Source of the DNA: an uncultured Verrucomicrobiae bacterium
GTDB lineage: Bacteria; Verrucomicrobiota; Verrucomicrobiia; Chthoniobacterales; UBA10450
Direction of reading: 5' to 3'
Length of the DNA: 64,000 bases
Assembly: GCA_963834385.1 (NCBI GenBank)
Contig: CAWIBO010000005.1
Location: 704,001-768,000 of the forward strand
This document shows positions 21,001 to 24,000 of this stretch, piece after piece. How positions within the stretch are numbered: position 1 is the stretch's first letter; the number at the start of each line of letters is the position of its first letter. A program made the position numbers.

Positions 21001-24000
21001 CCGCTGAACATCGATTTCCTCAAGCGCGGACTTCTCGCCACCATTCTCTCCCTCCTCGTCCTCGGGGCGGGCGCCACCGTCTTTACCATGCGCGGCGAGA
21101 AAAACTTCGGCGTCGATTTCCGCGGGGGCGACCTCCTCACCCTCAGCACGGAGCAACCGGTCGCCGTGGCTGACGTCCGCCGCGCTCTCGAGCCGCTCCA
21201 GCTCGCCGACGCCACCATCCAGAAATCGGAGCAGGCCGGCCGCAGCTATCTTTCCATCCGCAGCCCGCTCAACACGAGCGATGCCATCAAAACCCGCATT
21301 GGCGAGGCACTGCCCCAGGCGGGGCTGAAAACCGAGGGATCGGAGCGGGTCGGGGCGCTCGTCGGCGGCGAGCTCGCCCGCAAATCGCTCATGGCCCTCG
21401 GCCTCGGCCTCATCGGCATTCTGATCTACGTCACCTTCCGCTTCGAGCTCTCCTTCGCCATCGGCGCCATCGTGGCCGTGCTGCACGATGTCCTCATGAC
21501 CGTGGGCATCTTCGCTCTGCTCGGCCGCGAGCTCAGCCTGACCCTTGTCGGCGCCATTCTCACCATCGCCGGCTATTCGATCAACGACACCATTGTCGTC
21601 TTTGACCGCATCCGCGAGGGGCTCGCCAGTGGGCGCAAGGGGACCATTGAGCAGATCATGAACGAGAGCATCAACCAGACGATCAGCCGCACCGTCCTCA
21701 CCGGCGGCGCCACCCTCATCCCGATCTTCTGCCTCTTTCTCTTTGGCGGCACGGTCCTGCGCGATTTCGCCCTCGCCATCCTCATCGGCGTCCTCGTCGG
21801 CACCTATTCCTCGATCTTCATCGCCTCACCCATCGTGCTCTGGTGGACCCGCGCACGCGGTCGCTCGACCAGTTCGCTCCGGCGCGAGGTCATTGAGACC
21901 ACCGCTGCGACCAAAAATCCCCGTCCCACCAGCTAAAAACGGCCCCAAAAGGGCGCATTTGACACCACCTCGGGCGACGACTACGATTTGCGCCGCCCGT
22001 AGGGGCAATTTTACAGGATCGAGGTGAAATAATGCCAGAAGTCATCGTACGAAAAGGGGAACCGGTTGACCGGGCTCTGAAGCGACTGAAAAACAAGCTC
22101 GACGCCGAGGGAATCCTTGAGGAGGTCCGACGGCTCCGCGCCTTTGAGACGCCATCGCAAAAGACCCGGCGGAAGGCCAAGGCCAACGCCAAGCGCGGCC
22201 GGACAAAGTTCCGCTTTAACCCCTCCTAGAGAGAGACTTAGCTTTAACGCGACTTTGCCGACAGTGCCGGCGAAGTCGCGTTTTTTGCTTGGTCCCCGGC
22301 AGACGGCTTAGCCGCCCAGGCTCTCGCATTCGCACACGACCCGGAACCCAAGGTCGTTGCACGAATAGCTCGGGATATTGCACGCGCGGGTGGTCGCCCG
22401 CAGGCTGCTAAAGCGCGATTTCCAGCTTCCCCCGCGGTAAACCCGCTTCTGCCCACTCGGGGCTCCCCGCGGATTCACCCGGGTGCCGCCCCGGTACATT
22501 TCGAAATAGTCCAGGCACCATTCCCAGACGTTTCCGGCCATGTCCTGCATGCCGAAAGGGCTCGCGCCCAACGGGTAAGCGCCCACGGGTGAGCTTTCGC
22601 TGAACCCGTCGTCGATTTCCCGGTCGCTCCAGGCGAAAACCGTGTTCCGGTCGGCAAAATTGGCCAGATCCCCCCGGCGTTCCAGGCTTCCCCAGGGAAA
22701 CTTGCGCCCGTCCAGCCCGCGCGCGGCATATTCCCACTCGGCCTCGCTGGGCAGCCGGTAACGCCGGCGCTCACGCGTGCTGAGCCATTGGCAAAATTTC
22801 ATCGCGTCGAGGCTGCTCACATAGAGCACCGGGTGCTGGTCGCCCGCCCCGGGGGCCCGTTTGCGGCTGTGGCTGGGATCGAATTCCTCATACTGGGCAT
22901 TCGTCACGGGATGGCACGACATGTAAAAGCGGCTCACCAGCACTTTGGTCAGCGGCTTTTCGTTCGGCGGAGAATCAGGCGCCTCCGAGCCCATGGTGAA
23001 CTCCCCGCTGGGGACAAAAAGCATCTGCGCCCCCGCGGTGTTCACGAACGGGGTAAAATTGCCCACCTCGGTGGCGGCATCCATCACCGACTCCTTCACC
23101 TCCACAGCCGGCGCCGGGGAAGCGGTGGCCGACGTCGCGGCGTGTCCCGGAGACTCCGGCAAATAGGACGGGTCGGTCAGCCGGTCGGCTTCCTCCAGGT
23201 AGGCGTCAACCAGGCCCTCAGCCTCGTCCACGTCGATCCCGAGGTTCTCGGCCATGTTCACAAAGGCGTCCCGTTGATCGTCGGTCATCGCATCGCTGTC
23301 GAGACCGCTCAATCGCAGCATGCGCATGAAATCTTCCGTCGGCCCGAGGGAATTCGAACGGCGGACACGGGCCGGGGCGGGCGCGGGAGGATCGACCGGA
23401 ACCGGCGCCGCCGCCACCGGGGCGGGCGCGCTCACGCGCACGGCGTTGCTGTCGCGCAGCTCCGCCTCGATGTAGCGCGCCATTTCCTCCAGACTCAGGC
23501 CCTGTTGCTGGCCGAAATTGAGCAGGTTCTGCTCTTCATCCGCCGTCAGCCGGCCATCCCCGAGGGCAAAGGTCAGATACTTGTGGAACTCGATCACGGA
23601 TTCTTCGTGCAACTGGGCCGCAATCTCCGCATCGACCCGCTGGCGCCGGGCCGGGTCCAGCAGTTCGAGCCTCGCCTGGGCCAGGTAACGCGGCGATTCG
23701 TCCAGGCCGGACCGGAGCATTTGCGCGATCGGGTTGCTCGGCTGGTTTTTCAACGGCAGCTTCTTCTGCCACCACCGCAGGAGCGCGCGGCAATGTTCCT
23801 CGATCAGCTCGTTGCTCGGTTTGGTCGAGGGATCAAGGCAGAGGCGCTCGTAATAGTTCGGCGACTTGTACTTGCTCCAGCCGTCCCATTTGTTGGGATC
23901 GTCCGGGAGCGGCGCCGGGAACGAGACGTTCGAGTTGACCATCACCATTACGCGATGCGAAGCCCGTTCAGGTCTGATTTCGCCTGCTCAAATTCCTGCG

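What a model noticed while it worked through the whole genome (the two positions that open the first line are those of the whole stretch)
22005..22229. In a genome without Shine-Dalgarno sequences, rpsU (bS21) keeps a conserved extended SD: Bacteroidia-type bS21 autoregul [...]
SD sequences are no more frequent than chance in this genome although the 16S anti-SD is intact, yet rpsU has an extended SD (AGGATCGAGGTGAA before the ATG) that is conserved in relatives. This is the signature of bS21 autoregulation through anti-SD sequestration, described so far only in Bacteroidota.
Evidence so far: 16S 3' end intact. Strong SD (-8.4 kcal/mol or below) in 5.6% of 675 named genes against 7.7% in a control window further upstream. 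rpsU ranks 2nd of 503 named genes with a non-coding upstream and 1st of the 26 ribosomal-protein genes among them. Order sample: 18 of 28 scored rpsU genes have a strong SD, often GAAAG-NN-AGGTGAA; the two unscored reduced genomes show the same motif. Control genes from relatives: 0 of 17 (FEN), 0 of 8 (ndk), 0 of 12 (PTPS). Family sample: 9 of 15 strong, all 15 at -4 or below; outside the order 1 of 4 scored, at -16.8.
(Added by a program. Inside this text positions count along the whole contig: contig position 704,001 is position 1 of the stretch shown here. "Call 12" and the like, gene names such as g00115 and contig names such as C1 are that model's own, and its searches are not shown. The text may have been shortened before it was handed on; [...] marks where a part breaks off. 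The agent that wrote the report below was given it as the finding of a first reader that could run no searches.)

Follow-up and report, generated by a model that had tools for sequence, protein, structure and literature searches.

The report
Split ribosome-binding site on rpsU
In a soil bacterium whose genes hardly use ribosome-binding (Shine-Dalgarno) sites, the gene for ribosomal protein bS21 keeps a long match to the 16S rRNA tail that is broken in the middle, an old design shared across its phylum that probably lets ribosomes lacking bS21 make more of it, although the tail-hiding pocket known from Bacteroidia is not there.

Summary
Observation confirmed. The genome is a Chthoniobacterales (Verrucomicrobiota) with SD use near chance and an intact 16S tail. 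rpsU (22032-22229) has the strongest SD of 46 ribosomal-protein genes scored: 11 of 13 pairs with 16S 1532-1544, -13.2 kcal/mol. Counting only consecutive pairs it is third (-9.9).

The site is split: two arms around a broken core. In 31 of 34 genomes of one group of families it pairs 12 of 13 positions with one mismatch, and the base opposite C1538 is never G. Other lineages break the core elsewhere.

The long rpsU SD also occurs in SD-using classes of the phylum and in a second phylum (19 of 29 at -13 or below), several SD-poor lineages lost it, and the Bacteroidia pocket residues are absent. So it is not a signature of anti-SD sequestration.

Best reading (0.45): bS21 feedback in which the mismatch restricts efficient initiation to 30S lacking bS21, as engineered core mismatches do in Flavobacterium. 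Nothing was tested at the bench. Not found in print for Verrucomicrobiota; this scan noted the like in CPR genomes.

The parts
21959..21987 (+). sigma-70-type promoter of rpsU: TTGACA, 17 nt, TACGAT; implies a leader of about 38 nt (start near 21994 inferred, not mapped)
   Evidence: 10 of 12 consensus matches, 0.1 expected in shuffles; TGAC and the -10 T invariant in 15 aligned relatives
21995..22006 (+). small GC hairpin at the inferred 5' end of the leader, followed by a U-rich stretch (22009-22012)
   Evidence: fold; hairpins of different sequence at the same place in relatives, seen by eye, not tested for covariation
22015..22018 (+). distal arm of the split SD (AGGA), pairs with 16S 1541-1544 (one G-U pair)
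   Evidence: needs a mature 16S reaching U1544, which is inferred from relatives
22019..22020 (+). two mismatches (TC) opposite U1540 and C1539: the break in the core
   Evidence: the same break in 7 of the 80 closest loci and in a distant family (G270)
22021..22027 (+). proximal arm of the split SD (GAGGTGA), pairs with 16S 1532-1538; 4-nt spacer to the ATG
22032..22229 (+). rpsU, ribosomal protein bS21, 65 aa, single copy; Lys54 where F. johnsoniae has Tyr54; basic C-terminal part ending in KFRFNPS
22246..22292 (+). intrinsic terminator-like hairpin (15 pairs) with T tail; with the promoter it makes rpsU a likely single-gene transcript between secDF and a convergent gene

Best explanation
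rpsU mRNA carries an old, long SD that spans the whole 16S tail (1532-1544) but is broken in its core, and it most likely makes bS21 synthesis depend on 30S subunits that lack bS21. Shown: the site, its 13-position register, its conservation, the broken core, the near-chance SD use elsewhere, and the absence of the Bacteroidia pocket residues. Inferred: a subunit with bS21 bound can pair only a short part of the tail, and the broken core makes that part weak (-2.6 to -5.7 kcal/mol against 1535-1541). A subunit without bS21 can form both arms (-13 to -14.5) and initiates well, so new bS21 shuts its own synthesis down. The gate would be bS21 occupancy itself (its C-terminal helix against a long helix), with at most a weak or differently built hold on the tail; the anti-SD need not be hidden from all mRNAs.
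For: Of 167 rpsU sites, 100 score -8 or below; only 6 of these have a full Watson-Crick core and 74 pair fully at 1532-1534. Control ribosomal-protein sites at -8 or below show the reverse: 31 and 4 of 48. In six families the base opposite C1538 is T 20, C 6, A 2, a GA insertion 1, never G (30 genomes, 1 without the motif), while 21 of 21 16S tails are canonical, so the mismatch is real. Other lineages break the core opposite C1536 or C1539/U1540, or by one base in or out. No GGAGG in the 80 closest loci, although 69 score -4 or below and 19 of 91 comparable genes of this genome have it. Complementarity stops at 1532 and 1544, the span of the 13-bp F. johnsoniae helix that clashes with the bS21 C-terminal helix (PMC13000457 section 17). 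In F. johnsoniae a single core mismatch blocks wild-type but not bS21-lacking or pocket-mutant ribosomes (PMC13000453 passages; PMC13000457 section 19). Energies cluster at -13 to -14.5 against -21.1 for a perfect match, as a set-point would predict. In the 12 split-SD genomes whose ribosomal-protein cluster was read, none of 145 other starts reaches -13.
Against: No experiment on any Verrucomicrobiota ribosome was found. In most solved complexes a short SD helix passes through bS21 without displacing it, and whether a mismatched long helix clashes here is unknown. In F. johnsoniae a core mismatch is harmful in wild-type cells. The site is weak or lost in many relatives: 1 of 31 genomes of f3, f5, f6, f7, f11, f12, f15 reaches -8, and in the window's own family 1 of 16 (the window's genome) reaches -13; 7 of the 80 closest loci do. 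Kin are not independent: the 29 sites broken opposite C1538 may descend from one event. Energies come from my own free_scan-like scoring, which allows internal loops; by consecutive pairs most split sites score only -7.0 (25 of 32). The mature 16S 3' end is not mapped.
Confidence: 0.45

Rival explanations
1. One reading: the anti-SD is hidden genome-wide in a platform pocket built from other residues (for example the Arg-rich bS18 N-terminal extension and the KFRF tail of bS21), and rpsU is autoregulated as in F. johnsoniae, with the mismatch balancing a weaker pocket.
For: SD use near chance with an intact tail. Leaderless starts explain only a few percent (TANNNT 6 nt before 19 of 531 starts). 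The bS18 extension is conserved in 17 of 17 order genomes read and a K..R[FY] tail in 89 of 90 bS21. Chlorobia also lack Tyr54 yet keep the SD (PMC9976891 passage). Core mismatches are commoner in SD-poor groups (33 of 35, 19 of 21) than in other classes (11 of 21) or the second phylum (4 of 22).
Against: Bacteroidia-specific residues absent. Ordinary SDs persist at rplP (10 of 16 order genomes) and in a small excess genome-wide. The extension and tail are equally present in families that lost the rpsU SD. The long SD is older than SD loss (tree).
Confidence: 0.2
2. The long split site makes rpsU strictly SD-dependent or guards the message, but does not sense bS21: it sets a fixed rate, stabilises the mRNA, or reads 16S 3'-end maturation (the unprocessed trailer can fold back on the anti-SD).
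For: Present in SD-using lineages where no masking is expected. Often combined with TTG or GTG starts outside the order. The trailer AAGGAG can pair with CUCCUU (-6.4 kcal/mol) in the window's genome and 20 of 21 relatives. SD changes alter rpsU mRNA levels in F. johnsoniae.
Against: Does not explain why this gene, whose product lines the SD channel, is singled out across phyla. Other highly expressed first-in-unit ribosomal genes here (rpsT, rpsO, rpmE, rplM, rplK) score 0. A fixed high rate would not avoid the perfect core.
Confidence: 0.25
3. A decaying relic of an ancestral SD, or chance, with no present function in this genome.
For: 11 of 2350 called genes reach -13. The site is variable within the own family and lost in sister families.
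Against: Prior-chosen gene, chance 56 of 20000 per window. 33 of 90 order sites reach -13 while 1 of 90 mock windows reaches -8. Twelve invariant positions inside an otherwise unalignable leader across seven families.
Confidence: 0.1

Closest known systems
bS21 (rpsU) translational autoregulation in Flavobacterium johnsoniae and other Bacteroidia (PMC7797042, PMC9976891, PMC13000453, PMC13000457)
   Same: SD-poor genome with intact anti-SD; rpsU has the strongest SD among ribosomal-protein genes; the match spans the same 13 positions, 1532-1544.
   Different: The helix is interrupted in its core, not 9-13 consecutive pairs; about -13 to -14.5 against a mode of -20 kcal/mol (different scoring tools); rpsU is not a lone genome-wide outlier; Tyr54 of bS21, Phe50/Asn56/Gln58/Lys37 of bS18 and Trp100/Arg103 of bS6 are absent; the bS21 C-terminal part is basic (pI 11.3-12).
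Chlorobia rpsU (PMC9976891, discussion passage)
   Same: Strong rpsU SD in an SD-poor genome without Tyr54; mechanism proposed to be similar but not identical.
   Different: Chlorobia keep 11 other tail-contacting residues; here only non-specific ones (Arg34, Glu57, Leu62, Arg65 of bS18) are kept.
Engineered core mismatches G-11U, G-12A, G-15A of F. johnsoniae rpsU (PMC13000453, PMC13000457)
   Same: One mismatch inside a long SD helix; such messages start on bS21-lacking or pocket-mutant ribosomes but not on complete ones.
   Different: There the mismatch is artificial and halves growth; here it is natural, conserved, and reached by several different changes.
SD-poor Verrucomicrobiales (PMC10798248; PMC10783764)
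   Same: SD scarcity with an intact anti-SD in this phylum is in print (7 of 7 Verrucomicrobiales; Spartobacteria 10%), with the open question whether the tail is occluded.
   Different: The passages read do not treat rpsU there; Akkermansia and Luteolibacter rpsU lack a strong SD (Table S1 of PMC9976891), so the pattern was not visible in those genomes.

Membership tests
Bacteroidia-type rpsU autoregulation by anti-SD sequestration | Genome-wide SD use at or below chance | tested here: met
   121 against 110 of 531 at -4; 64 against 63 of 273; a small excess of strong sites remains
Bacteroidia-type rpsU autoregulation by anti-SD sequestration | Intact anti-SD in 16S rRNA | tested here: met
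   21 of 21 relatives with an assembled 3' end, of 72 searched
Bacteroidia-type rpsU autoregulation by anti-SD sequestration | rpsU strongest among ribosomal-protein genes and below -13 kcal/mol (McNutt 2023 criterion) | tested here: inconclusive
   met narrowly with internal loops allowed (-13.2, first of 45); not met with consecutive pairs only (-9.9, third of 46); free_scan itself was not run
Bacteroidia-type rpsU autoregulation by anti-SD sequestration | [quoted passage not shown] | tested here: not met
   7 consecutive pairs here; 6 to 8 in 32 of 32 split sites of the order
Bacteroidia-type rpsU autoregulation by anti-SD sequestration | rpsU a lone outlier far beyond the genome's chance distribution | tested here: not met
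   11 of 2350 called genes reach -13; start calls are predicted
Bacteroidia-type rpsU autoregulation by anti-SD sequestration | bS21 Tyr54 and a weakly basic C-terminal part | tested here: not met
   ungapped match 5-49 to 7jil_z gives offset 0, extended by me to residue 54: Lys in 89, Arg in 1 of 90; pI 11.3-12
Bacteroidia-type rpsU autoregulation by anti-SD sequestration | bS18 Phe50, Asn56, Gln58, Lys/Arg37 | tested here: not met
   offset +12 from the match 28-78 to 7jil_w 40-90; Leu/Ile/Met, Thr, Ser/Thr/Asn, Asp in 17 of 17 order genomes; position 37 lies just outside the matched stretch
Bacteroidia-type rpsU autoregulation by anti-SD sequestration | bS6 C-terminal helix with Trp100, Arg103, Lys107 | tested here: not met
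   match 3-88 to 7jil_k 2-87; tails after residue 88 are variable, Lys/Ala/Pro-rich and hold no Trp in 16 of 17 order genomes; the 17th (G059) reads through a frameshift and cannot be judged
Bacteroidia-type rpsU autoregulation by anti-SD sequestration | 3' tail bound on the platform in vacant ribosomes | not testable with these tools
   needs cryo-EM; no Verrucomicrobiota ribosome was recognised among the hits, which give no organism names
Bacteroidia-type rpsU autoregulation by anti-SD sequestration | bS21 loss raises rpsU translation | not testable with these tools
   needs reporters or in vitro initiation
Bacteroidia-type rpsU autoregulation by anti-SD sequestration | SD and anti-SD covary where the tail differs | tested here: inconclusive
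   no variant tail among the 22 read, so no test was possible

The most novel reading that the evidence does not exclude
bS21 feedback through a long rpsU SD is an old, many-phylum mechanism that needs no tail-hiding pocket, and Verrucomicrobiota sharpened it several times by breaking the SD core, so that rpsU mRNA acts as a two-arm key read well only by bS21-free 30S. Bacteroidia sequestration would be a later add-on, and Chthoniobacterales may hold a second, differently built way of masking the anti-SD.
Probability: 0.3. Interest if true: 0.8.

Novelty: new variant of a known kind. Interest (0 to 1): 0.6.

Why it matters
It turns an open question in print (is the anti-SD occluded in SD-poor Verrucomicrobiota? 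PMC10798248) into a direct test with a natural reporter. It also suggests that control by ribosomes lacking one protein, so far shown for F. johnsoniae, may be common and older than anti-SD sequestration. The split design explains why screens with a short anti-SD or consecutive pairing would miss it (-4.3 to -5.7 against 1534-1541), and gives a natural counterpart of mismatches known to discriminate bS21-free from complete ribosomes.

Tried and rejected
Compensatory change in 16S behind the mismatch: rejected, 21 of 21 tails canonical. Assembly error at the site: rejected. Leaderless messages as the cause of SD scarcity: only about 3% of starts show a -10-like hexamer at the leaderless distance. 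Homologous Bacteroidia pocket: not met. Link between the bS21 or bS18 tails and presence of the SD: none seen by eye. Masking of the site by mRNA structure: a weak hairpin (U-rich stretch with the proximal arm, about half unpaired); not tested in relatives and not used. prfB frameshift site as a marker of anti-SD use: my two pattern searches did not locate prfB. A second outgroup phylum: the genome used as centre turned out to be Verrucomicrobiota; 15 of its 30 loci not scored before gave 9 at -13 or below. No RNA holder listed. My gene caller failed in the frameshifted S10 cluster, so ribosomal genes were set by hand; rpsQ, rplN, rplE, rplR, rpsE, rplY and rpmB were not scored, and the rpsH and rplX starts are uncertain. 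No fold or complex prediction was run: neither holds RNA.

Full report
The locus. The finding covers rpsU (22032-22229, +; TIGR00030), downstream of tgt-yajC-secDF and convergent on a 546-aa gene. It has its own sigma-70-type promoter (TTGACA-17-TACGAT, 21959-21987) and a 15-pair terminator-like hairpin, so it is probably a single-gene transcript with a leader of about 38 nt (inferred). Record titles of the closest loci name Chthoniobacterales, Spartobacteria and Ca. Udaeobacter, which places the genome in Chthoniobacterales, Verrucomicrobiota. Family codes (f1...) are the tool's; any names I attach to them are my inference.

Is the genome SD-poor? The single 16S 3' end found is canonical. I scored pairing to 16S 1532-1544 without bulges but with symmetric internal loops (ViennaRNA energies, my own script, not free_scan), at 0-15 nt from the start and in a mock window at 25-40 nt. 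Starts were called without an upstream model. Among 531 genes with an unambiguous ATG, 121 against 110 reach -4 and 25 against 19 reach -8; among 273 with a non-coding upstream, 64 against 63 and 9 against 11. Samples of 120-200 kb from two genomes of other classes show clear SD use (68 against 45 of 130; 30 against 13 of 66), while G126 (20 against 19 of 94), G055 (50 against 36 of 157 at -4; 10 against 10 at -8) and G295 (39 against 32 of 96; 12 against 12) show little or none. A residue remains: 56 against 29 of 2350 genes at -10, GGAGG before 20 against 9 of 531, and a conserved ordinary SD at rplP (10 of 16 order genomes). So 'SD-poor' is right and 'without SD' is slightly too strong. Leaderless starts account for about 3%.

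The rpsU site. AGGA-TC-GAGGTGA (22015-22027) pairs 11 of 13 positions, -13.2 kcal/mol, first of 45 hand-set ribosomal-protein starts. With consecutive pairs only it is -9.9 and third of 46, behind rplX (start uncertain; the site probably lies in rplN coding sequence) and rpmH. Random windows reach -13.2 in 56 of 20000. Seven of the 80 closest loci carry the same or nearly the same site, and a contig of a public run spans it with no listed difference (this may be the source sample), so it is not one of the indel errors seen in this assembly.

The order. rpsU was found in 146 of 151 genomes; I read 90 of them, the 30 best hits and 60 chosen across families before seeing their sequence. 46 of 90 reach -8 and 33 reach -13; 1 mock window reaches -8. 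The signal is uneven. In f2, f4, f9, f10, f13, f14 and f16, 31 of 34 reach -13 with AGAAAG-H-AGGTGA or AGAAAGGA-T-GTGA, that is 12 of 13 pairs and one mismatch. In the 12 of these whose S10 cluster was read, none of 145 other starts reaches -13, and 23 against 28 reach -4. In f3, f5, f6, f7, f11, f12 and f15, 1 of 31 reaches -8. In the own family 10 of 16 reach -8 and only the window's genome -13. The 80 closest loci (a few overlap this sample) give 69 at -4, 28 at -8, 7 at -13 and no GGAGG.

The split design. All 21 16S tails recovered from 72 genomes are canonical, so the break is not compensated. Opposite C1538 the base is T 20, C 6, A 2, a GA insertion once, never G. Other lineages break the core opposite C1536, opposite C1539/U1540 as here, or by one base in or out. 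Over 167 rpsU sites, 100 reach -8; 6 of these have a full core and 74 pair fully at 1532-1534, against 31 and 4 of 48 control ribosomal starts. Complementarity ends at 1532 and 1544: the next bases pair in 5 and 0 of 32 cases. These counts are over kin and overstate independence; the several distinct kinds of break are the stronger argument.

Beyond the order. In other orders of the class 30 of 50 reach -8 and 12 reach -13 (one locus without a usable start dropped); in other classes 24 and 13 of 27, with one start probably mis-set. Those classes use SDs (38 against 16 of 52 ribosomal starts at -4; PMC10783764 table passage: Kiritimatiellae 63, Lentisphaeria 60, Spartobacteria 10). A tree of 35 genomes (FastTree, 1864 columns, some weak nodes) puts the long site in the outgroup classes and several deep branches and its absence in four separate groups (f18/f19, f22, f20/f69, f5-f8), which reads as ancestral presence and repeated loss. 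In the phylum of a genome titled Acidobacteria, 26 of 29 scored sites reach -8 and 19 reach -13 (30 loci from 36 genomes with a match; one unpublished genome left out; the same tail assumed), but only 4 of 22 at -10 have a core mismatch, against 33 of 35 in this order. Table S1 of PMC9976891 lists 360 'S21 winners', among them Mycoplasmoides pneumoniae, two Streptococcus and Luteitalea; the sections read discuss only Bacteroidota. So a long rpsU SD does not by itself show sequestration.

The pocket. By ungapped offsets to the F. johnsoniae chains and the residue list of PMC7797042, Tyr54 is Lys or Arg in 90 of 90, bS18 Phe50/Asn56/Gln58/Lys37 are replaced in 17 of 17, and bS6 has no Trp-bearing tail in the 16 that can be judged. 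Some positions lie outside the matched stretches and are extrapolated. The order has its own traits, an Arg-rich bS18 N-terminal extension and a K..R[FY] tail on bS21 (89 of 90), which could build another pocket, but they are also present where the SD is lost.

Mechanism. In F. johnsoniae the 13-bp helix clashes with the C-terminal helix of bS21, and single core mismatches stop complete ribosomes but not those lacking bS21 or with a damaged pocket. The natural split sites look like such mismatches, at an energy plateau of -13 to -14.5 against -21.1 for a perfect match. I therefore favour bS21 feedback gated by bS21 occupancy (0.45) over genome-wide masking in a convergent pocket (0.2), a bS21-blind role (0.25) or a relic (0.1). 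All steps after the sequence pattern are inferred.

Literature seen. PMC10798248, PMC10783764, PMC7797042, PMC13000453: passages. PMC9976891: passages, sections 32-33, and row searches in Table S1, which is cut at about 2400 labelled rows of 4362; winners appear to be sorted first, and no Chthoniobacter, Terrimicrobi-, Xiphinemato-, Kiritimatiell-, Victivall- or Pedosphaera name is in the part held. Its supplementary figures were not seen and may show other phyla. PMC13000457: abstract and sections 17, 19, 20. Five searches found no paper on an rpsU SD in Verrucomicrobiota or on a natural split core; subscription journals are mostly outside the library. Earlier notes of this scan report a lone strong rpsU SD in CPR genomes (unchecked by me); nothing matched this sequence.

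Verdict. A real, conserved feature; a new variant of the known bS21 circuit rather than a member of the Bacteroidia type. The window's genome is a middling example; the cleanest cases are in sister families. Interest 0.6.

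Noticed in passing
G000:C5 16S 3' end (about 409860-409880, - strand); L091-L111: The 16S tail is followed by AAGGAG, which can fold back on CUCCUU (-6.4 kcal/mol) and would mask the anti-SD until 3' trimming; present in the window's genome and 20 of 21 relatives.
   Followed up: partly
G000:C5:223575 (rplP) and L190-L209: rplP (uL16) keeps an ordinary AGGAG/GGAGG SD in 10 of 16 order genomes although its neighbours have none: a second candidate for SD-based control.
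   Followed up: partly
L271 and L263-L285 (rpsR): bS18 has a conserved Arg-rich N-terminal extension in all 17 order genomes read and a similar one in f20; short or different in f19 and the other classes.
   Followed up: partly
window 22206-22226; L016-L041, L170-L171: bS21 ends in a conserved K-F/I-R-F tail across the order; f6 and f20 add long Ala/Pro- or Glu-rich extensions and lack a strong rpsU SD.
   Followed up: no
G000 genome-wide: Bases before start codons are C-rich (C at -1 in about half of 531 genes), unlike the adenine pattern of F. johnsoniae; TANNNT peaks 6 and 9 nt before the ATG.
   Followed up: partly
G000:C5:220400-228400: Many frameshifts in the S10-spc cluster, probably assembly indels; a 176-aa non-ribosomal gene sits between rpsS and rplV here and in G014.
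   Followed up: no
window 22308-26455 (- strand): A cluster of a GrpE-like gene, an Hsp70-like gene and a 546-aa formylglycine-generating-enzyme-domain protein runs convergently into rpsU (GrpE and Hsp70 labels by eye; the last from weak NCBIfam hits below cut-off).
   Followed up: no
G333 (L356), G334 (L350): Two records titled as other phyla hold Chthoniobacterales-like rpsU; one genome has three rpsU matches and looks mixed, the other groups with Verrucomicrobiota.
   Followed up: partly
L142-L169, L410-L439: Outside the order, rpsU with a long SD often starts with TTG or GTG.
   Followed up: partly
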